DNA of 20,000 nt from an uncultured virus (IMG/VR IMGVR_UViG_3300005201_000018). Its lineage: Duplodnaviria; Heunggongvirae; Uroviricota; Caudoviricetes. Position 1 is the first letter of the stretch. Each line of letters starts with the position of its first letter. This document shows, piece by piece, positions 352 through 15,197 of the stretch. A program made the position numbers and the translations under genes. Where the stretch lies: IMG/VR virus record IMGVR_UViG_3300005201_000018, one strand, 5' to 3'. The notes under the pieces are model-generated. The model made no database searches and was not told the origin of the DNA. It worked only from the letters and a program-made list of their open reading frames with translations.

Positions 352-515
352 TCTTTTACCCCTGTGTCACTGTTATGCGTCAAGTTCTCCTGCCCAACGT
401 CGGCAGTGTTTTTATCAAAGCCGCTCTCGTCATCCACAATTCTCGGGAGCTCCTTCACCCGCCCCCAGTCCCATTTCGATTGTGGCGTCCGTTCAGACAC
501 CCATGGATCATGCAT
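348..515 (-). CDS. Small hypothetical protein, 55 aa (MHDPWVSERTPQSKWDWGRVKELPRIVDDES...GVKE), not in the ORF track
   Basis: Translated by hand. AGGAG RBS upstream, 8-nt overlap with the preceding gene, ATGA coupling to the next gene. Confidence 0.65.
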   Translation of the reverse strand: MHDPWVSERTPQSKWDWGRVKELPRIVDDESGFDKNTADVGQENLTHNSDTGVKE

Positions 516-1623
516 CTTTGCTCTCCTTACTTCTTTTCTTTTTTCTGTCTGTTAACAACAGCACTATAGACAATGCAAACGGCGCGAGTATGTCGTACAG
601 GCACGCTGGCGCTGCGTATACAAAAAAGCGCGCAACATCCTCCGGTATTTTTAATAGACGTGCCAATAATGTGTAGACCGTCTCTTGCGATTTAACAGCT
701 TGCTTGACCAGTTCCGGTCTTGATGACTCAAGATCAACTCTACGCCTCCGTAAATCGCTCTGTTCACTCTGAACGGCGACAATCTGTTCCTGGAACTCAT
801 CGTATCGTCGCCATGACTGACTTCGCCAGTACTGTGATTCAACCGTAAGCTGTTCTAATCGCCTTTCCGTAGCATTGAGCGCCTCCTGATTTTCGAGCAG
901 CAGTTTCTCATGAGCCACCAGAGCTTCATTGTCTTCAACTGCGACAGATACTTTCTCATCGGCAATCCGCTTAAACTGGTTATAATTAACCGTCAATGTT
1001 GAAAAAACCGAATATGCTATGATCGCAAATCCGGCAACAACAAATAATACACCAAAAAACTTTTGTGCGCCTTTTTCCTGAAGAAAGTATCTTGCTGCTG
1101 TAAATGCTGTTCCTGAAAACAGTATAAACATAACACCTGTCATAATACCGGTCCACGCCGGCTTGCCGCCCTCGATGAGAAAGATTGACGTATGATATGC
1201 CGACATAATTGCGCTCCCTACACCCACCACAGCCATCACAACAGCGACAAGAAAAACAGAAGAAAAGAAACCTGGCATTTTACCCTGTTTCTCTTTCGGC
1301 GGCTGTTCAGCAGTTATAGCTTCAGCCTCCTTCATTCTTCGGCGCTCGGTGCGAGCATGTGCTACAAGATCGGCAGTGCCTTTTTTACGGCGCAGTATGC
1401 CCGTCGTACATCCATAAGCAAAATCGAAATTGCAGTGTAGCGGATCTTGTGCGAGCTCCGTGAGCTTCTCTGTAAGGCCGCCGTTCTCGAGCTTATCAAA
1501 CTCTTCGCGGGAGACAATGACACCCGTCTCAAACAAGACGTGCTTTGTCCCTCGTATAAACCGTAAGCCTGTGCCTGTGTGAGTATGCACTGTCGGTTTC
1601 TTTACCGTTACGTCGTCAGCCAT
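508..1623 (-). CDS. Membrane protein with 3 TM segments, a long coiled coil and a C-terminal TM segment (DUF4407-like architecture)
   Basis: 371-aa ORF. Hydrophobic segments FLVAVVMAVVGVGSAI, IMTGVMFILFSGTAF and FFGVLFVVAGFAIIAY, then a heptad-rich E/Q/R region, then LAPFALSIVLLL and a basic tail. Confidence 0.75.
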   Translation of the reverse strand: MADDVTVKKPTVHTHTGTGLRFIRGTKHVLFETGVIVSREEFDKLENGGLTEKLTELAQDPLHCNFDFAYGCTTGILRRKKGTADLVAHARTERRRMKEAEAITAEQPPKEKQGKMPGFFSSVFLVAVVMAVVGVGSAIMSAYHTSIFLIEGGKPAWTGIMTGVMFILFSGTAFTAARYFLQEKGAQKFFGVLFVVAGFAIIAYSVFSTLTVNYNQFKRIADEKVSVAVEDNEALVAHEKLLLENQEALNATERRLEQLTVESQYWRSQSWRRYDEFQEQIVAVQSEQSDLRRRRVDLESSRPELVKQAVKSQETVYTLLARLLKIPEDVARFFVYAAPACLYDILAPFALSIVLLLTDRKKKRSKESKDA

Positions 1624-1916
1624 TTTTCAAACCTCTCTTGGTACCGTGCCCCCTGCTTTGTTTCTTCAGGCTTTGAGTACACCCATATATCAGCCTCGGC
1701 ATCTAAAACCTCCTGTATGTCATTCTTCCACTGTTCACAAAGCCGGTGCGTAGGGGCTATTATAATGACAGGTAGCTTTTTCTCCAGAGCAATGAGGATC
1801 GCGGCCAGTGTTTTTCCGCAACCGCAGTCTACGACAAGTGAAATAATTTTCCGTGCCGCGCCGATAGCAGCGGCCTGTAGCTGCCATTTATATGGAGTAA
1901 GCGTAGTAAACCTCAT
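1608..1916 (-). CDS. Stand-alone N-terminal part of an SF2/SNF2-type helicase (Q motif, Walker A, motif Ia)
   Basis: PYKWQ (Q motif), DCGCGKT (motif I), VIIIAPTHRLCEQW (motif Ia). Has its own GGAGG RBS and ends before motif Ib/II. Confidence 0.85.
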   Translation of the reverse strand: MRFTTLTPYKWQLQAAAIGAARKIISLVVDCGCGKTLAAILIALEKKLPVIIIAPTHRLCEQWKNDIQEVLDAEADIWVYSKPEETKQGARYQERFEKWLTT

Positions 1917-2086
1917 AACTCAACCTCCAATTTAATTTCACAAGCAGAAAGTTTTATGTCTACAAACTCAAACCTGTCTTCTACTTTCAATACGAACTTA
2001 TCGCTATAGTTACACTTTGAAATACTTATAACGCAGTAGTACGTGCGGTAAAGTTCGCCATTGCCATTGTATGTTCTCACCGTCAT
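1913..2086 (-). CDS. Small hypothetical protein, 57 aa (MTVRTYNGNGELYRTYYCV...KLEVEL), not in the ORF track
   Basis: Translated by hand. GAGGGGG RBS; its TGA overlaps the ATG of the helicase N-terminal gene. Confidence 0.7.
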   Translation of the reverse strand: MTVRTYNGNGELYRTYYCVISISKCNYSDKFVLKVEDRFEFVDIKLSACEIKLEVEL

Positions 2087-2101
2087 GCTAGTCCCCCTCT
2101 G

Positions 2102-2383
2102 TTAAAATCCTTCAAATGCCGCCTTGGCTAGATCTGGTATCTGCTGTGTCCTCTCCGCAGTATCAGCCTTCACTCCCTTTAACTCCGCGATAACTTCGGG
2201 TCTGTTGCAGGAAGGGCATAGCTCCTCCCATTCGCCGTCTTTGTCTTTCACACTTGCCCACCCGTTGTCTCTGTCGGTTTTATAATCAACTGCGTCGCGA
2301 AATGTTTCAAAAATCTCGTCACAGTCTTCTCCGCAATAGTCACAGGTAAGCCTAAAGTCATCCACGCCGTGTTTCTCAATCAT
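2102..2383 (-). CDS. Small zinc-binding phage protein
   Basis: CDYC...GW...CPSC cysteine pairs. ATGA-coupled to lar. Confidence 0.75.
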   Translation of the reverse strand: MIEKHGVDDFRLTCDYCGEDCDEIFETFRDAVDYKTDRDNGWASVKDKDGEWEELCPSCNRPEVIAELKGVKADTAERTQQIPDLAKAAFEGF

Positions 2384-2574
2384 TCCGACCTCCTATTCCA
2401 CTCCCTGATAGCTTCGACATCGGTTTCCGCAAAAGGCCCCTGTGCACCACATGAACACATGACAAAACGCCAACGCTCAAGGATAGTTCCATGCTTATGT
2501 TCGCTACCAAATGCAAACTCCTCTTCGTGCTTATTACCACAAAACGGACATTTTTCTTTGTCAGTACTAAACAT
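2380..2574 (-). CDS. lar: Lar-family restriction alleviation protein
   Basis: Signature KCPFCG...VMCSCGAQGP...EAIREWNRR; GGAGG RBS. Confidence 0.8.
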   Translation of the reverse strand: MFSTDKEKCPFCGNKHEEEFAFGSEHKHGTILERWRFVMCSCGAQGPFAETDVEAIREWNRRSE

Positions 2575-2582
2575 ACCACCTC

Positions 2583-3959
2583 CTAATCAAACTTGAAAAT
2601 CTCTTCCCTGTTTTCAGCACCAATTAACTCTTGCCCAACTCGTATTGCTTCCCATTGCCGCTCCTCAATAGACCCTGCCGCATAAATCGCATACGCAAAC
2701 TTTGGAGCGCGAAGCTGTCCCCGCAGTACGCGAGACATAGCCTGATGATATTTTTCAACTGAACCGTCGATACAGGTCCAGATGACGTAGGAACAGTCAG
2801 ATAAGCAGTTAAGGCCGTACGCACCAGACGCTTGGTTCGCAAGAAAGACTTGCGCCTCACGGTTCTTAAACCTTTTTTCCGCTTCCTCTTTTTTATTATC
2901 TTTCGCACTACCGTCGTATACCACATAGGAGATGCCTGCACCTGTAAAGGCGTCTGCGCACGCACGTAAGAACAGTTTGCGAGAACTCCAAACAACGACT
3001 TGATTTTTTCCCACATCAATTTCCTCCAATAGTTCCATGAGTTCATCTACTTTCGCGTTTTCCTTAAACGGACGATGCGCAACCTGCCGATCTGGTTTGT
3101 TATCCTTATCAGCCCAATCCTTCTTATCATAGTCAGAATCAATATTTACAGGTTCAAACCCGTTGCAAATGTCCTGTAAGCGCATCTGGAGTTCCAATGC
3201 CGCAGCTTTTCCAAGCACCAGGTTATCCGTAAAGCCAACCTTAATAAGTTCATTGCCTATCCTTTTTGCCTCTTTCGACAGCTCTACAGGGCGCATAATA
3301 GGCTCTTTCACAAATTTGTCGTGCTTAATGTCAAAAATGTCTTCCCGCTTGACAAATATAGTGTCCGGTGCGATACGACGCAACAGCTCGTTCTTGTTCA
3401 AGAAAGGAGTGTATTTCCGATGCCGTATAATATGCTCTTGTTTCGCGTAGTCTATAGTGTATTGTTTAAAAAGGCTTGACTTTGCTGCTTCAAGCTGCGT
3501 TTCACCGCCTCGATTATACGCATTAACAAGTCTGCTCCGTATATTTTCATAGTCCTTTTGACCAATACACACTCGCCTACCGCGACCAACACGAATAGTC
3601 TCTCTTACGCTGTACTTTTCGGCAAACTCCCACATACTTTCAGGGAAGTAACCTTCTTGAAGGAACTCGTATTGGTCATACACATTCACCGGTGATTTTG
3701 ACATGAGTGTTCCTGTCATAATGCAGCGGTCGCCGTACTTATTAAGTTGTTTTATGAGCCGGGTTCTACTTGATTTCTTCTCTTCCTTCATCGGGTCGTT
3801 GACCTTGATCTTTGATGATTCATCAAGCACGATGAACGGACGCGTAAAAACAGAAAGAAACTTCCGTACAACCCATGGGAGGTCGTTGAAGGATACCGTT
3901 TTTTGCTGCTTTACGCCTCTAGGAGAGAAAGCTTCGGTGTTAATTATTAAGAACTTCAT
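2583..3959 (-). CDS. SNF2-type helicase lacking the N-terminal Walker A segment (motifs Ib-VI only)
   Basis: Starts at MKFLIINTEAFS (Ib region). Contains IVLDESSKIK (II), IMTGTLMSKSP (III), VVVWS (IV), LANQASGAYGLN (V) and QAMSRVLR (VI). No GxGKT. Confidence 0.88.
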   Translation of the reverse strand: MKFLIINTEAFSPRGVKQQKTVSFNDLPWVVRKFLSVFTRPFIVLDESSKIKVNDPMKEEKKSSRTRLIKQLNKYGDRCIMTGTLMSKSPVNVYDQYEFLQEGYFPESMWEFAEKYSVRETIRVGRGRRVCIGQKDYENIRSRLVNAYNRGGETQLEAAKSSLFKQYTIDYAKQEHIIRHRKYTPFLNKNELLRRIAPDTIFVKREDIFDIKHDKFVKEPIMRPVELSKEAKRIGNELIKVGFTDNLVLGKAAALELQMRLQDICNGFEPVNIDSDYDKKDWADKDNKPDRQVAHRPFKENAKVDELMELLEEIDVGKNQVVVWSSRKLFLRACADAFTGAGISYVVYDGSAKDNKKEEAEKRFKNREAQVFLANQASGAYGLNCLSDCSYVIWTCIDGSVEKYHQAMSRVLRGQLRAPKFAYAIYAAGSIEERQWEAIRVGQELIGAENREEIFKFD

Positions 3960-4252
3960 TGTTTCTTCCCTCCTTTCCCCGATTTCTTCTCGATCTTCTC
4001 AAAGCCCATTGTCGTAACGGCAAACTCTGCTATCTCGGAAGCCGTTATAATAATTTCTCCTGCCATGTCATAGGTGTGCTGCGTCTTTCGCAGCTGTATA
4101 GACTCATAAAGATTGAACAACTTATCCTCCAACCACGAGTACAGCTGGTCAAAGTCGTGCGGGTAATTACCAATCCGAGGACGACAAGACAACCGGCCTC
4201 GCGCCGACTTCATGCCTGCGTTCAGGATCTGACTGCCTCGCTTCTTGTCCAC
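3956..4252 (-). CDS. Hypothetical protein
   Basis: 98-aa ORF, GTG start with GGAGG RBS, ATGA-coupled to the large helicase gene. Confidence 0.7.
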   Translation of the reverse strand: MDKKRGSQILNAGMKSARGRLSCRPRIGNYPHDFDQLYSWLEDKLFNLYESIQLRKTQHTYDMAGEIIITASEIAEFAVTTMGFEKIEKKSGKGGKKQ

Positions 4253-4278: not shown

Positions 4279-4530
4279 CTAAACAGCAGGCTCTTTCCAG
4301 TCTTTGCCAAGTTCTTTATGAACAGTTTTATGACAGGAATCGCACAACCACGATACATCAAGCGGCCTTGCGTAATCGTTATGGTGTGCCTGTAACTTAC
4401 TTGAAGGAATAGATGTCCTGCATCTCTGGCAGTAGGCGGGTTTTACTAATTTGCCGCGCTGGACGGCTTTTTGTACAAGCCATTTAGCCCTTGCCTGCTC
4501 TGGCCACAAGACGTTGTAGTTACGACTCAC
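4279..4530 (-). CDS. HNH-like zinc-finger protein (putative endonuclease)
   Basis: RGKLVKPAYCQRC...QAHHNDYARPLDVSWLCDSCHKTVH matches a common phage HNH-related pattern. Likely GTG start at 4530 (GTGA overlap). Confidence 0.75.
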   Translation of the reverse strand: MSRNYNVLWPEQARAKWLVQKAVQRGKLVKPAYCQRCRTSIPSSKLQAHHNDYARPLDVSWLCDSCHKTVHKELGKDWKEPAV

Positions 4531-4688
4531 TTTTCCACCACCACAGCTAATAGTTTTACCGCACAAAACTTCTCACAAGGTTTCTCGGTACCGCCCAGCT
4601 TCTTACACGCCCTACAAGGCATGCCTATCTCAAGGCTAAGTTGTTGCGGAAGAACACCAATCCGTTCAGCTAATTGTTTCAATGTCAT
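4527..4688 (-). CDS. Small Cys-containing hypothetical protein
   Basis: MTLKQLAERIGV...CRAC...CEKFC; GGAGG RBS before the start at 4688. Confidence 0.6.
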   Translation of the reverse strand: MTLKQLAERIGVLPQQLSLEIGMPCRACKKLGGTEKPCEKFCAVKLLAVVVEK

Positions 4689-5061
4689 CAATATCCTCCG
4701 GTATTGCAAATTTCAAGTCTTTACGTTCCAAGACCTCTAAAGGACTTATATGTACAACACGCTTGCGTGGTACATCCCATGCAAGTATCTCTATAAGAAG
4801 TTCTTTGTTACGCTTATAGAACAATGGCTGCGTTGGCTGGAACTCAATTACACCTTTCTTATCAGACATTTTGAACTCGGAAAAATAGGCTGGCAGTATA
4901 CCTGACATGGCTAAAACATCCGGCATACCAGGCTCTTTTTCCTCATTCTCGATCTCAAAATGCTTAAATACAGAAGTTTTCTTCCATGCCTTCAACACTG
5001 CCGCTTTGAAGGCAGCCTCATCCTTGAAAGGACCAGTCACCAACCCCTTAATAACTTTCAT
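4666..5061 (-). CDS. VRR-NUC / Holliday-junction-resolvase-like PD-(D/E)xK nuclease
   Basis: E...PGMPDVL...FSEFK...FQPTQ pattern. Start at 5061 follows a GGAGG RBS. Confidence 0.75.
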   Translation of the reverse strand: MKVIKGLVTGPFKDEAAFKAAVLKAWKKTSVFKHFEIENEEKEPGMPDVLAMSGILPAYFSEFKMSDKKGVIEFQPTQPLFYKRNKELLIEILAWDVPRKRVVHISPLEVLERKDLKFAIPEDIDDIETIS

Positions 5062-6007
5062 ACATACCTCCGTAGTATCCATCTTTTGTGGTAGGGAACA
5101 CAGTCTTCTGCCATTTATCCCGGTTGCCAACAAAATCCTTGGCTTCTTTAAGCACCTTCTTCTCCTCTTCCATTCTTTTTCTCTGTTTGTTCATTTCTTT
5201 TTTGTCAACGTAGTATTCAATGGTGTTTGCGATAAGCCCGTCAAGCTGTGTTGGTTCAATAGCGTCTAACTCCCAAGATGTTTCCCCGTACTTCTGCATA
5301 TATTTTGTAAAGCGCGAGTCCGTTATTTTTGCGGGGTTAGGCGGCGGATTATACGTCTTTATCTGGTCCATGTTGAGCGCGACACGGTTGATAGTCAGAT
5401 TTATATTATCAGAAAACAGCTCTAGACGTTCTTGTATATCCCGTGTCATGTCTATACCAGACGGATCATGATCACCCAAATGAATAATAGTGCACGGCCT
5501 TTCACCGCCAAAAGAAGCAGACGAGAGCCGTTGTGCAGCTGCCCACATTTCTGACTGCGATGTATAACCACGGCACGAGAAGCAGGGTACATCAAAACGT
5601 TGTGCAACCTGCTCTACAATGCCGATGAGCGCGTCTTTCTCCACCCACACTTCTATATACTGCGGCTGTGTGTCCCACAGGTCAATACGATAGCTGTTTA
5701 CGGCGCTGCTTATAATATCAGCAGGGTTATCCCAGTGGCTCAAGCGCCGTATGTACCGCGTTCTGTCCTCAATTGCGTGCCAGTCGATAAGCCCTGCAAG
5801 CCTGCCATGAGACATATAGTCGCCGACCATTTTGTAGGAACGCTCATTGTTGGGGATTATGCCACGAGCGACGAGCTGGTAATAAACTTGGCGTAGTGTA
5901 AGGCTATACCCGGCAGCGTCGTACTCCGCAATAATGCTGTTCATTTTATTTATCAGCACAAGGCCAGCCCCACGGATTTTAATATCTTGATACTTAATAC
6001 ATGGCAT
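5048..6007 (-). CDS. Spo11/topoisomerase VI subunit A-like protein (winged helix + Toprim)
   Basis: TLRQVYYQL (catalytic Tyr motif), EVWVEKDAL (Toprim Glu), CRGY, HLGDHDPSG (DxD), WELDA. Confidence 0.8.
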   Translation of the reverse strand: MPCIKYQDIKIRGAGLVLINKMNSIIAEYDAAGYSLTLRQVYYQLVARGIIPNNERSYKMVGDYMSHGRLAGLIDWHAIEDRTRYIRRLSHWDNPADIISSAVNSYRIDLWDTQPQYIEVWVEKDALIGIVEQVAQRFDVPCFSCRGYTSQSEMWAAAQRLSSASFGGERPCTIIHLGDHDPSGIDMTRDIQERLELFSDNINLTINRVALNMDQIKTYNPPPNPAKITDSRFTKYMQKYGETSWELDAIEPTQLDGLIANTIEYYVDKKEMNKQRKRMEEEKKVLKEAKDFVGNRDKWQKTVFPTTKDGYYGGMYESY

Positions 6008-13055: not shown

Positions 13056-13471
13056 TTTTTACTCCCTATGATAGCTAAAAAATCTGTACCTAATCGTTTT
13101 CGCATATTCCACAAATAAAAACGTTGCTTTGCAGGAACCTCCTCATGCAAAACAAGCCAACGATACAAGTACAACTGCTCGCCGATAGTAAGGTGTATAT
13201 CGTCACCTTTCCATGTATAGTCATGCAATGCAAAATTGAAACAATACTTTCCCTGTCGCCATATACACCCGCCGAGATCAGTGAGGCTTTTAAGTTCTGC
13301 TTTTGCCGTCTTCTTCTTCTGCCTAAACACACCGAGACGATCCAATGTCACAGTCAATCTGCAATCATCAAGCTTCCGATCAGCGTTTCGGAACCATTCA
13401 ACTATATCGTCAACCGGAATGTCTGCGGTTTTCGGGATAAAGAATGTTTTAGAACTTAGTATCGTCGCCAC
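13052..13471 (-). CDS. Hypothetical protein
   Basis: Probable GTG start at 13471 after GAGGAGG. GTGA overlap with the helicase start. Confidence 0.65.
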   Translation of the reverse strand: MATILSSKTFFIPKTADIPVDDIVEWFRNADRKLDDCRLTVTLDRLGVFRQKKKTAKAELKSLTDLGGCIWRQGKYCFNFALHDYTWKGDDIHLTIGEQLYLYRWLVLHEEVPAKQRFYLWNMRKRLGTDFLAIIGSKK

Positions 13472-15197
13472 TACCGTCTTCCTCCTCTGCCTTATTCTTC
13501 TGTAAAATATCTGCGTCCCCTTCGTAGATGTCGTCATAGAAAGCATCCATTGCCAAAAGCTCCTCCGTCTCGCTTTTCTTCCAGCACGGTATTTTAATCT
13601 CAACACCCTTTGCTGTCTTATACACTAGTTCTGCTTCCGTACACCCAAAATCTGTCAGCTTTGCATGAAGATTAACCTTATGCAAAGGAATCTTTTCAAG
13701 GTTCAAAAACCGCAATAGACCGTCCGTGGTAAAGTAATACACGCCGTCTGATTTATAAACCTGCCCGACCTTTATTAACGACTGCTGTCCGTTTTGTATC
13801 TGTTTATGCGTTAAATATCGCATAACCGCGTTACGCAGCAACGAATCTTCGGAAGTCTCTGTCCCTTTCGCAACCACTATTTTCCGTTCCTTCAGGCCGT
13901 CCATAGATCGATTTGTTATGTCGATCCAGTCCGCTTGTTTTACAACGTTAGGCGACCAATGAAGATCACGACGGCAAGCAGTCCGTATTTTTGCCTGATT
14001 CTCAAAATCATCCACACAATCAATACGTACCGGCCTATAGTCTTCACCCTCCTTGACTCGAATTTGCCAGATGTAATACTGCGCTTCATCTGCTGTATCT
14101 ACAACTTTCGTTAACTCTCCCCAGGAATCTGCCCCGGTAAGATGGTTGCCTTTATCACGTCCTACCCCAAACTCACGTTGTTTACACAACCTCTTATCGC
14201 AATAATCAGCACAAGGCGATTTCTTACACCAGTAGTTGTCCCAATTCTTCTCTTTGTCGGTAACTGACGAATAAATTGACGTTACCTCTTTTTCTTCTAA
14301 AGGCGCTTCAAGACAGCCATTCATCTCATCGAGAAGACCACGAAAATCCTCCCGATATTTCTTTTTCAGGTATATCGCCGCAGAAAATAAAAAACAGTTG
14401 CGTCCATCGTTTTCTGCAAGAGCGCCTGTTAGCAGAATCATCTGTATGCAAAACGGCGCGTCACTATACGGCAGATTCTCCAATGCACCGCGTATCTCCC
14501 GTACTGAAGTAAACATGCTTTCGATGATCGGAATAGCTTTTTCTATGCCTATAAGCTTTCCTTCGGCAGTAAACATCTTATTCTTACAGCCTTTTGCCGT
14601 ATTATAAAAAGGCAGAAAAAGACAATTAACATTCCGGTCGCCGGGTATGAATGTAGCCTGCTTGGGGAACACTTCAACCTTGCTCTTGTTCTTGTCGTTT
14701 ACATACAGCCTGTTTAGCCCAAACACCTCCACAATTTTATTAAGCGCTTCAATAACTTTACCGCCTGGCTCTGCTTCTGAAAAAAAGAAATACAGATGCA
14801 GGCCGCCTGATTTTGACCGAAACGCCGCAAACTTAAACCCGAACTTGTATAACTTACGAACAAGCCCGGTAAAAGTTGTATCATACACATCAATGTCAAT
14901 CGCCGCAAAATAGCAAACATTGTTCTTGTCTTTCGTGTTGCACAACGGCGCTATGGCAACACCATTACCGCCGTTCAAGTGTTCCCTGTAGTGTTCTTTC
15001 GTAACCGGTACTAGGTCCCCCTTCTCAAAACCTTCCGGTATGTTAGGGAAACTCTTTGTCCCATAGGCTGCAAATCCGCACCACGAAGCCTTTAATTTTC
15101 CTTCCTTCTCTACGAAAGGCGCTTGGTGGTGAACATAAAACGCAGGATTGCCCTGGAAAAGCCGGTAGAACGCTGTGAGGGTGTTCTCTGTGGACAT
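13449..15197 (-). CDS. Archaeo-eukaryotic-type primase (AEP) with PriCT-like and Cys-cluster regions
   Basis: AAIDID (motif I), RSKSGGLHLY (motif II), GRNCFLF (PriCT-like), and four Cys in CKKSPCADYCDKRLC. Confidence 0.88.
   Translation of the reverse strand: MSTENTLTAFYRLFQGNPAFYVHHQAPFVEKEGKLKASWCGFAAYGTKSFPNIPEGFEKGDLVPVTKEHYREHLNGGNGVAIAPLCNTKDKNNVCYFAAIDIDVYDTTFTGLVRKLYKFGFKFAAFRSKSGGLHLYFFFSEAEPGGKVIEALNKIVEVFGLNRLYVNDKNKSKVEVFPKQATFIPGDRNVNCLFLPFYNTAKGCKNKMFTAEGKLIGIEKAIPIIESMFTSVREIRGALENLPYSDAPFCIQMILLTGALAENDGRNCFLFSAAIYLKKKYREDFRGLLDEMNGCLEAPLEEKEVTSIYSSVTDKEKNWDNYWCKKSPCADYCDKRLCKQREFGVGRDKGNHLTGADSWGELTKVVDTADEAQYYIWQIRVKEGEDYRPVRIDCVDDFENQAKIRTACRRDLHWSPNVVKQADWIDITNRSMDGLKERKIVVAKGTETSEDSLLRNAVMRYLTHKQIQNGQQSLIKVGQVYKSDGVYYFTTDGLLRFLNLEKIPLHKVNLHAKLTDFGCTEAELVYKTAKGVEIKIPCWKKSETEELLAMDAFYDDIYEGDADILQKNKAEEEDGSGDDTKF

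What the first reader, a model, noticed from the sequence alone, without database searches (positions are those of the whole stretch)
1608..3959. SNF2-type helicase split into two intact genes in permuted order
Seen: ORF 2583-3959 carries motifs Ib-VI but no Walker A. ORF 1608-1916 carries exactly the missing Q motif, GCGKT and motif Ia, and ends (...ERFEKWLTT) about where the large ORF begins (MKFLIINTEAFS). Both have good RBSs and are translationally coupled to neighbours. The N-terminal part lies downstream in transcription, ~670 bp away and separated by three genes (lar, a Zn-finger gene, a 57-aa ORF), so a frameshift, nonsense mutation or simple insertion cannot explain it. No intein ends are visible. 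Established: Walker A and Walker B belong to the same RecA-like lobe and both are needed for ATP hydrolysis. Inference: the enzyme is a heterodimer that rebuilds lobe 1 in trans, which could allow stoichiometric control or partner swapping.
Basis: partly seen in the sequence, partly recalled or inferred. Interest (0 to 1): 0.85.

Follow-up and report, generated by a model that had tools for sequence, protein, structure and literature searches.

The report
Phage SNF2 helicase in two swapped genes
An uncultured phage encodes its SNF2-type DNA motor as two separate genes in reversed order, with the ATP-binding piece downstream, and a whole clade of related phages keeps this layout under selection, so the enzyme is most likely assembled from two proteins.

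Summary
ORF 2583-3959(-) is an SNF2-like ATPase lacking motif I. ORF 1608-1916(-), 666 nt downstream, supplies the Q motif, GxGKT and motif Ia. Against a profile of 21 single-chain relatives, the pieces cover positions 6-98 and 109-522 without overlap.

It is neither an artefact nor decay. All 25 places with enough downstream DNA (the window plus 24 related loci, 35-80% identity) have the small gene downstream on the same strand. In 7 loci it overlaps the large gene's stop codon. dN/dS is 0.04-0.18 for both parts. None of 120 large-part homologues carries GxGK[TS].

New here:
- Adjacent, translationally coupled genes look like the basic state; the window's three intervening small genes look like later inserts.
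- One clade with a normal fused gene (P0201, L034) is nested inside the split clade (AU p=3e-12), implying re-fusion.
- A single unverified protein (P0205) is fused in the permuted order.
- Some relatives carry an intein in Walker B.

Physical assembly is inferred: the complex predictor was unavailable. I found no description in print. This is a new variant of known kinds (split phage enzymes, permuted P-loop proteins).

The parts
2583..3959 (-). Large helicase subunit (458 aa): motif Ib strand, Walker B (LDESS), motif III (TGT), RecA lobe 2 with motifs IV-VI. It has no Walker A.
   Evidence: Its homologue family has at least 120 members, none with GxGK[TS].
1608..1916 (-). Small helicase subunit (102 aa): Q motif (WQ), motif I (GCGKT), motif Ia (IIIAP), and a terminal helix ending in WL.
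   Evidence: Its family has 76 stand-alone homologues of about 100 aa.
2380..2574 (-). Lar-like restriction-alleviation gene (64 aa), inserted between the two helicase genes.
   Evidence: Pfam Lar_restr_allev 37.9 bits and phrog_599. The 80%-identical relative L001 has a different 62-aa gene at this position.
2102..2383 (-). 93-aa four-cysteine (zinc-ribbon-like) gene between the two helicase genes.
   Evidence: No family hit. By eye, similar small genes lie between the two parts in L001, L005 and L006.
1913..2086 (-). 57-aa ORF whose stop overlaps the small subunit's start codon (ATGA).
   Evidence: A 59-aa counterpart is present in L001.
3956..4252 (-). 98-aa upstream ORF whose stop overlaps the large subunit's start codon (ATGA).
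   Evidence: It is not a diverged N-part (hhalign probability 0.1%).
508..1623 (-). 371-aa downstream gene overlapping the end of the small subunit by 16 nt.
   Evidence: By eye (shared stretches at both ends of the listed translations, not aligned or searched), a similar gene follows the small subunit in L001; L059 has a 313-aa ORF at that place whose likeness I did not test. It is not a helicase remnant (hhalign probability 0.2%).
3968..3975 (-). Shine-Dalgarno sequence AAGGAGGG, 8 nt before the large subunit's ATG.
1924..1928 (-). Shine-Dalgarno sequence GGAGG, 7 nt before the small subunit's ATG.

Best explanation
The phage makes its SNF2-type ATPase as an obligate two-subunit enzyme.

The 458-aa protein provides half of RecA lobe 1 (the motif Ib strand, Walker B, motif III) and all of lobe 2. 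The 102-aa protein, translated from the same operon further downstream, provides the other half of lobe 1 (Q motif, P-loop, motif Ia; three strands and four helices in the model of a fused relative). The two chains fold together without covalent joining, so that Walker A and Walker B meet and ATP can be hydrolysed.

The reversed gene order is an inherited feature of a whole clade of uncultured phages. The basic arrangement is large gene then small gene, abutting and translationally coupled. The window's lineage later acquired three small genes in the gap.

The enzyme most likely acts as a dsDNA translocase in the replication/recombination module in which it sits.

Shown: gene anatomy, conservation, selection, contiguity with single-chain relatives, fused relatives, and the SNF2 fold of a fused relative.

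Inferred: assembly, activity, cellular role, and origin by tandem duplication followed by loss of the outer halves.
For: Contiguity: the two pieces give contiguous, non-overlapping coverage of single-chain homologues (HMM positions 6-98 and 109-522 of 536; alignment A6; phrog_62 positions 694-777 and 790-1127).

Conserved layout: the small part lies downstream on the same strand in 25 of 25 places with enough downstream DNA. These are the window, 23 IMG/VR loci and one MAG contig. Five further loci are cut off and cannot be assessed. The gap ranges from -4 to 3449 nt. Seven loci have start/stop overlaps preceded by AGGAG.

Complementary motifs: 0 of 120 large-part homologues carry GxGK[TS], and 120 of 120 carry QxxxRxxR. 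Of 76 small-part homologues, 69 carry GxGK[TS], 5 carry SCGKT and 2 are truncated.

Selection: dN/dS was 0.042-0.175 in the 12 of 22 comparisons where dS could be estimated. For window versus L001 it was 0.07 (large part) and 0.16 (small part).

Intein: 9 of 120 large-part homologues carry an intein exactly in Walker B (LDE|C...HN|C). They still start at the split point.

Fused relatives: P0201 and L034 are natural fused relatives in normal order. P0205 is one relative fused in the permuted order.

Structure: the AlphaFold model of fused P0201 has mean pLDDT 94.2 and pTM 0.89. The break falls in a 3-residue turn between helix 84-97 and strand 101-105. All 50 top PDB fold matches listed are SWI2/SNF2 ATPases.

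Co-divergence: the two parts co-diverge with Mantel r=0.94.
Against: There is no direct evidence of binding or ATPase activity.

The window's own large part does not reach Pfam SNF2-rel_dom at E<=1, and the small part scores 15.2 bits against a cut-off of 24.9. The SNF2 assignment therefore rests on relatives and on fold.

Co-divergence and co-occurrence are expected of any two linked genes.

The model of the permuted fused chain P0205 gave only pLDDT of about 50-60 for the small-part region, which had no alignment depth. It says nothing about packing.
Confidence: 0.78

Rival explanations
1. Assembly is regulated. The large subunit is an inactive apo-motor, and the supply of the small P-loop subunit switches it on. 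Supply would be set by translation through the intervening genes, or by timing.
For: The small gene is always translated after the large one. In several lineages 1-10 small genes sit between them.
Against: In 7 of 25 places the genes overlap (ATGA-type coupling), and in 2 more the gap is 7 nt. That arrangement favours equimolar synthesis, not control. No terminator-like site lies on the coding strand between the two genes, and promoter-like matches are at chance level (8 found against 6.2 +/- 2.7 in shuffles).
Confidence: 0.1
2. The pieces work apart. The large protein would be an ATPase-dead DNA-binding scaffold, and the small one an unrelated small NTP-binding protein.
For: Neither piece alone has a complete active site, and nothing here measures activity.
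Against: Walker B, motif III and motif VI are conserved in the large part, and GK[TS] is present in 74 of 76 small-part homologues. This is hard to explain unless the sites combine. The pieces exactly tile single-chain relatives, and a fused clade descends from split ancestors.
Confidence: 0.07
3. The pieces are joined into one chain after transcription or translation, by a split intein, trans-splicing or RNA circularisation.
For: Split inteins join fractured phage genes (PMC2677866, abstract read). Relatives of this gene do carry an intein.
Against: The intein in relatives sits inside Walker B, not at the break. The window's pieces have no extra residues at the junction and no intein domain. 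Rfam found no intron or other RNA family at E<=1 in the 20-kb window. Each ORF has its own Shine-Dalgarno sequence, start and stop.
Confidence: 0.03
4. The arrangement is a misassembly or a decaying pseudogene pair.
For: None found. No sequencing runs could be listed for read mapping.
Against: The same layout occurs in 25 of 25 places, some of which may be near-duplicates (L010/L011 and L007/L020 have identical small parts). dN/dS is 0.04-0.18.
Confidence: 0.01

Closest known systems
Single-chain SWI2/SNF2 ATPases (for example Sulfolobus SsoRad54 1Z63, E. coli RapA, ZorD of the Zorya defence system, CSB, ISWI, INO80)
   Same: They share the two-lobe SF2 core and motif set. The fused relative P0201 matches them by fold: all 50 listed matches are of this family, with E from 5e-20 to 7e-16. 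It also matches Fft3, Fun30, INO80 and SsoRad54 by sequence.
   Different: Here the core is encoded by two genes broken between motifs Ia and Ib, with the P-loop piece downstream. There are no accessory chromatin or RNA-polymerase domains.
Phage enzymes split into two genes: the fragmented NrdA of Aeromonas phage Aeh1 (PMC3045599, search listing and start of abstract seen), 'fractured genes' with split inteins (PMC2677866, abstract read), and T4 topoisomerase gp39/gp60 (recalled)
   Same: A replication-related phage enzyme is made from two polypeptides that must assemble.
   Different: In those cases the gene order is colinear, and the break holds a homing endonuclease gene, with split inteins or element-derived docking peptides. 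Here the order is reversed, many loci have nothing between the genes, and no intein or docking tails are seen at the junction in the window.
Circularly permuted SF2 helicase domain of GREB1 (Pfam PF20692; PMC7968844, passages read)
   Same: It is an SF2 core in which the order of the segments is permuted.
   Different: GREB1's domain is a single chain and is described as catalytically inactive. Neither the window proteins nor P0205 gave a hit to that Pfam family at E<=1. Here the catalytic motifs are kept and the pieces are separate genes.
Circularly permuted GTPases (YlqF/YjeQ type) and permuted or two-subunit DNA methyltransferases such as M.AquI (both recalled, not checked here)
   Same: They are precedents for P-loop or Rossmann enzymes that tolerate a re-ordered or split core.
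   Different: They belong to different folds and families, and none is a helicase.

Membership tests
SWI2/SNF2 family of SF2 ATPases | SF2 motifs Q, I, Ia, Ib, II, III and IV-VI are all present | tested here: met
   The full set is present only when the two ORFs are taken together. WQ, GCGKT and IIIAP are in 1608-1916; LDESS, TGT and QxxxRxxR are in 2583-3959.
SWI2/SNF2 family of SF2 ATPases | Pfam SNF2-rel_dom (PF00176) at or above the gathering score of 24.9 bits | tested here: inconclusive
   The window's large part has no hit at E<=1, and the small part scores 15.2 bits. Relatives pass: P0231 69.9, P0250 56.1, P0205 49.6, P0219 35.3 and P0201 25.0 bits.
SWI2/SNF2 family of SF2 ATPases | SNF2-type fold of the ATPase core | tested here: met
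   This was tested on the fused relative P0201 (43% identical to the large part), not on the window's proteins. The model has pLDDT 94.2, and all 50 listed Foldseek PDB matches are SNF2-family ATPases.
SWI2/SNF2 family of SF2 ATPases | DNA-dependent ATPase / dsDNA translocase activity | not testable with these tools
   This needs biochemistry.
Fractured gene with split intein | An N-intein at the end of the first piece and a C-intein at the start of the second | tested here: not met
   The small part ends at residue 97 and the large part begins at residues 99-100 of the fused relative, with no extra sequence. No intein domain is present in either window protein.
Fractured gene with split intein | A free-standing homing endonuclease gene in the break | tested here: not met
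   The break holds a Lar-like gene and two small ORFs without an endonuclease match. In 9 of 25 places the gap is 7 nt or less. An HNH-like gene (4279-4566, phrog_2340) lies upstream of the large part, not in the break.
cpSF2-GREB1 (Pfam PF20692) | A match to the family profile | tested here: not met
   No hit at E<=1 for the window's two proteins or for P0205 or P0201.
Intron-interrupted or trans-spliced gene | A group I or group II intron RNA at the break | tested here: not met
   Rfam scan of the whole window, both strands, gave 0 matches at E<=1.

The most novel reading that the evidence does not exclude
Splitting inside a RecA lobe with reversed gene order is a stable and reversible evolutionary state of a motor enzyme. 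One ancient fission and permutation founded a large clade of phages. The clade has kept a P-loop subunit supplied in trans for long enough to fall to about 35% identity. At least one lineage rebuilt the normal single gene from the two pieces, and possibly one fused them in the permuted order. If the large subunit is made first and stays inert until the 100-residue P-loop piece inserts its strands into the shared sheet, this would be a natural 'fold-complementation' switch for a helicase.
Probability: 0.3. Interest if true: 0.75.

Novelty: new variant of a known kind. Interest (0 to 1): 0.62.

Why it matters
Helicase textbooks treat each RecA lobe as an indivisible folding unit. Here nature appears to have cut lobe 1 between motifs Ia and Ib, swapped the gene order, and kept the result working across a deep phage clade.

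If the two proteins do assemble, three things follow:
- There is a natural, evolution-tested split site for SNF2/SF2 motors, useful for split-protein engineering and for studying how a P-loop sheet assembles from two chains.
- There is a rare documented case in which gene fission with permutation was later reversed by re-fusion.
- Annotation pipelines need a warning. They currently label the two genes separately ('SNF2 family helicase' and 'superfamily II helicase'), and the large one could be misread as a dead ATPase.

Tried and rejected
Complex prediction: complex prediction (both chains as alignments) was not available and nothing was folded. Binding is therefore untested.

Fold of the permuted fused protein P0205: the large-part region was confident, but the linker (436-479) had pLDDT below 50 and the small-part region about 50-60. 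MAFFT would not place the small parts on that region when large parts were also present, so that region had no alignment depth. The result is uninformative about packing.

Search for more permuted fused forms with P0205 residues 425-550: only P0205 itself was found. Its DNA was not found in IMG/VR or in the JGI metagenomes. It remains a singleton from one 6.6-kb contig, and a sequencing or assembly error cannot be excluded.

Read mapping: no sequencing run could be listed for window:1400-4400 (none was listed). No RNA holder was listed either.

Whole genome: none is held for this window.

Remnants expected from a duplication origin: the upstream 98-aa ORF versus the small-part profile gave hhalign probability 0.1%. 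The downstream 371-aa ORF versus the large-part profile gave 0.2%. No remnants were detected.

Flanking repeats around the three inserted genes: only short two- or three-copy matches of 15-20 nt were found.

Cultured relatives: there was no megablast match in 50,697 phage records. The best tblastn hits of the large part were 22-23% identical over 82-94% of the query, and of the DNA polymerase 31%.

Literature: searches found no paper describing a split, order-swapped SNF2 or SF2 helicase. Subscription journals are not covered.

Earlier findings: a search by sequence found nothing. A search by words gave the GREB1 permuted-helicase lead and the split-UvsW 'clasp' notes.
Full report
**What is in the window.**

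All genes in the region run on the minus strand as one tight block. In transcription order they are:
- a 98-aa ORF (3956-4252);
- the 458-aa helicase piece (2583-3959);
- a Lar-like gene (2380-2574);
- a 93-aa four-cysteine gene (2102-2383);
- a 57-aa ORF (1913-2086);
- the 102-aa helicase piece (1608-1916);
- a 371-aa gene (508-1623).

Starts and stops overlap or lie 8-15 nt apart. Both helicase ORFs start in an ATGA overlap with the ORF before them. Both have Shine-Dalgarno sequences: AAGGAGGG at 3975-3968 and GGAGG at 1928-1924.

On the coding strand, no terminator-like site lies between the two pieces. Promoter-like matches are at chance level, with 8 found against 6.2 +/- 2.7 in shuffles.

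The surrounding window is a phage replication module. It holds an AEP-type primase, a UvrD-like SF1 helicase, two methyltransferase-like genes, a family A DNA polymerase and ThyX.

**Are the two ORFs halves of one helicase?**

Yes. The large ORF matches Pfam Helicase_C and phrog_62 at profile positions 790-1127. The small ORF matches DEAD and ResIII, and phrog_62 at positions 694-777.

I built an HMM from 21 single-chain homologues only, with no split sequences in it. The small piece aligns to positions 6-98 and the large piece to 109-522 of 536.

In a 56-row alignment headed by the fused relative P0201, the 21 small parts mostly end at about residue 97; three reach 98, 99 or 164, and four with long tails are strung out further. 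Of the 20 large parts, 17 begin at residue 99 and one at 100; two with a longer N-terminus start earlier. The break point is a variable linker in single-chain relatives.

The motif content is complementary:
- The small piece has WQ, GCGKT and IIIAP.
- The large piece has LDESS, TGT and QxxxRxxR.

**It is not an artefact or decay.**

The large piece has a big family. At least 120 proteins are listed at 50-100% identity, most of about 445-460 aa. Of these, 76 start with the MK(W/F/Y)L... motif at residue 2. None of the 120 contains GxGK[TS], and all 120 keep QxxxRxxR.

The small piece has 76 stand-alone homologues of 56-125 aa. Of these, 69 have GxGK[TS], 5 have SCGKT and 2 are truncated.

At DNA level, 28 IMG/VR loci and one MAG contig encode relatives of the large piece at 35-80% identity. 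Five of them (L008, L021, L025, L027, L028) end at or just after the large gene and cannot be assessed.

In all 24 remaining loci, and in the window, a profile of the small piece finds it downstream on the same strand. Some loci may be near-duplicates: L010/L011 and L007/L020 have identical small parts.

dN/dS by NG86 was computed for 11 pairs and both parts. In 10 of the 22 comparisons dS was saturated and no ratio could be given. The other 12 gave 0.042-0.175. For window versus L001 the values were 0.07 (large part) and 0.16 (small part), at dS of about 1.7.

**The basic arrangement is adjacency.**

The distance from the large gene's stop to the small gene's start is as follows:

| Gap (nt) | Loci |
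|---|---|
| -4 or -1 | 7 (L012-L018) |
| 7 | 2 |
| 47 | 1 |
| 143-156 | 5 |
| 222-252 | 2 |
| 365-666 | 7, including the window at 666 |
| 3449 | 1 (L019) |

In the seven overlapping loci, the start and stop overlap behind an AGGAG.

So the reversed order is the conserved feature. The window's three intervening genes are lineage-specific cargo. L001, 80% identical in the large part, has a different first gene in place of lar. A small four-cysteine gene similar by eye to the window's 93-aa ORF recurs in the gap in L001, L005 and L006.

**Fused relatives and direction of change.**

A search of 1.84 billion representatives found three kinds of relative:
- Split-type large parts down to about 35% identity.
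- Ordinary single-chain relatives: P0201 (549 aa, 43% identical; query 2-458 aligns to 100-547), the truncated P0200, P0219, and many more distant ones.
- One protein, P0205 (550 aa), in which the large part comes first and a small-part sequence with GTGKT follows after a linker of roughly 30 residues.

The normal fused form is confirmed in DNA. L034 has one 550-codon ORF, 73% identical to P0201. It lies behind a family A polymerase and a 169-aa gene that, by eye, shares a short EPGMPD stretch with the window's 4666-5133 ORF.

P0205 is a singleton from one 6.6-kb contig. I could not retrieve its DNA, and no second example was found. It may be real or an error.

I built a tree of the large-part region with IQ-TREE (quick search, SH-aLRT support). 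It has 43 rows and is rooted on 5 distant single-chain proteins. I left out:
- L011 and L020, as near-copies of L010 and L007;
- the five truncated loci;
- L059, which was fetched only later;
- fragmentary proteins.

The tree places the fused clade P0200/P0201/L034 inside the split clade, within groups supported at 98 and 100. Forcing all split forms into one group costs 114 log-likelihood units, with AU p=2.9e-12. The group was defined after seeing the tree.

A tree of the small-part region puts the N-terminal region of P0201/L034 next to the split small part of L005, with support of 89.

The simplest history is therefore one fission with permutation near the base of the clade, followed by a later re-fusion into the normal order. 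The alternative is eight or more independent identical fissions. A tandem duplication of the large-small pair would create a small-large junction that could fuse. This is inference, and I found no remnants.

**Family and fold.**

The window's own large part does not reach Pfam SNF2-rel_dom at E<=1, and the small part scores 15.2 bits against a cut-off of 24.9. Relatives pass the cut-off: P0231 69.9, P0250 56.1, P0205 49.6, P0219 35.3 and P0201 25.0 bits.

P0201 matches lobe 2 of Fft3, Fun30, INO80 and SsoRad54 by sequence.

Its AlphaFold model (alignment A6) has mean pLDDT 94.2 and pTM 0.89. Residues 1-97 form helix 6-15, strand 20-25, P-loop, helix 31-39, strand 45-50, helix 52-64, strand 72-74 and helices 77-82 and 84-97. 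Then comes a three-residue turn and strand 101-105. The natural break therefore sits in that turn. The large part adds the Walker B strand (139-144) and the motif III strand (175-180).

All 50 listed Foldseek matches in the PDB are SWI2/SNF2 ATPases, including CSB, Mot1, ISWI, INO80, ZorD, SsoRad54, RapA, Rad54 and Rad5.

From general knowledge of the ASCE P-loop fold (recalled), the P-loop strand lies between strands contributed by the later part of the lobe. The two chains would then have to interdigitate in one sheet rather than dock as domains. That fits co-translation from neighbouring genes.

**Other joining mechanisms.**

Nine of the 120 large-part homologues carry an intein (Pfam Intein_splicing). 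It is inserted in Walker B (LDE|C...HN|C), and in the six whose sequences were fetched the protein still begins at the split point: four with the MKWL-type start, one with a 16-residue leader before it, one cut at the contig's end.

The window's two proteins have no intein domain and no extra residues at the junction. Rfam finds no RNA family at E<=1 anywhere in the window. Covalent joining is therefore unlikely.

**What remains open.**

Binding and activity are inferred, not shown:
- The complex predictor was unavailable.
- The model of P0205 was uninformative for the small-part region.
- No sequencing runs could be listed.
- The idea of partner swapping has no support: the two parts co-diverge (Mantel r=0.94, 0 of 5000 permutations as high), and the profile search, which listed only matches with E up to 0.01, gave one small part in the window and one in each of the 24 other loci.

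**Comparison with what is known.**

Phage enzymes split into two genes are known, but with colinear order and a homing endonuclease, split intein or docking peptides at the break. Examples are PMC2677866 (abstract read) and PMC3045599 (listing and start of abstract seen).

A circularly permuted SF2 domain is described in GREB1 as a single, inactive chain (PMC7968844, passages read). The proteins here do not match its Pfam family.

My literature searches found no description of a split, order-swapped SNF2 helicase. The phage itself has no close cultured relative.

I rate this a new variant of known kinds. It is well supported as an observation and moderately surprising to a helicase specialist.

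Noticed in passing
Relatives P0032, P0042, P0049, P0066, P0077, P0118; window equivalent 3816-3830 (LDESS): Nine of 120 homologues of the large part carry an intein of about 200-350 aa, inserted exactly in Walker B (LDE|C...HN|C). The window's copy has no intein.
   Followed up: partly
L007:7560-7904, L012:7428-7778, L013, L014-L018 (small parts): In one subclade the small P-loop subunit has a C-terminal extension of roughly 13-22 residues (L018 to L017). It is acidic and ends in V/I-V/I-F (for example ...EETDDDEEVIF). This is reminiscent of the acidic tails of single-strand-binding proteins that recruit partners (recalled). The window's copy lacks it.
   Followed up: no
window 2102-2383 (-); L001:7525-7806, L005:3244-3489, L006:7365-7589: A small four-cysteine (zinc-ribbon-like) gene with no family match recurs in the gap between the two helicase genes in several lineages (likeness judged by eye, not aligned). 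It may be a conserved companion rather than random cargo.
   Followed up: partly
window 508-1623 (-); L001:8305-9432; L059:5884-6822: A gene of about 370 aa follows the small subunit in the window and in L001, and the two look alike by eye (shared stretches at both ends of the translations; not aligned or searched). L059, a distant relative, has a 313-aa ORF at the same place whose likeness was not tested. It has no Pfam or PHROG match.
   Followed up: no
window 4279-4566 (-): A 95-aa HNH-like endonuclease gene (phrog_2340, E=1e-21) lies two genes upstream of the large helicase part. It is outside the break between the two parts.
   Followed up: no
window 13449-15197 (-): The primase-like protein matches the AEP domain of the TOTE conflict system (Pfam PF22548, 41.3 bits) and phrog_21866.
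   Followed up: no
window 5048-6007 (-): A 319-aa protein matches phrog_6247, annotated 'DNA topoisomerase' (E=9e-113), but has no Pfam match. The PHROG label may be unreliable.
   Followed up: no
L019:6708-10158: In one relative the gap between the large and small helicase genes has grown to 3.4 kb and holds about ten ORFs. The inter-subunit gap appears to act as an insertion hot spot.
   Followed up: partly
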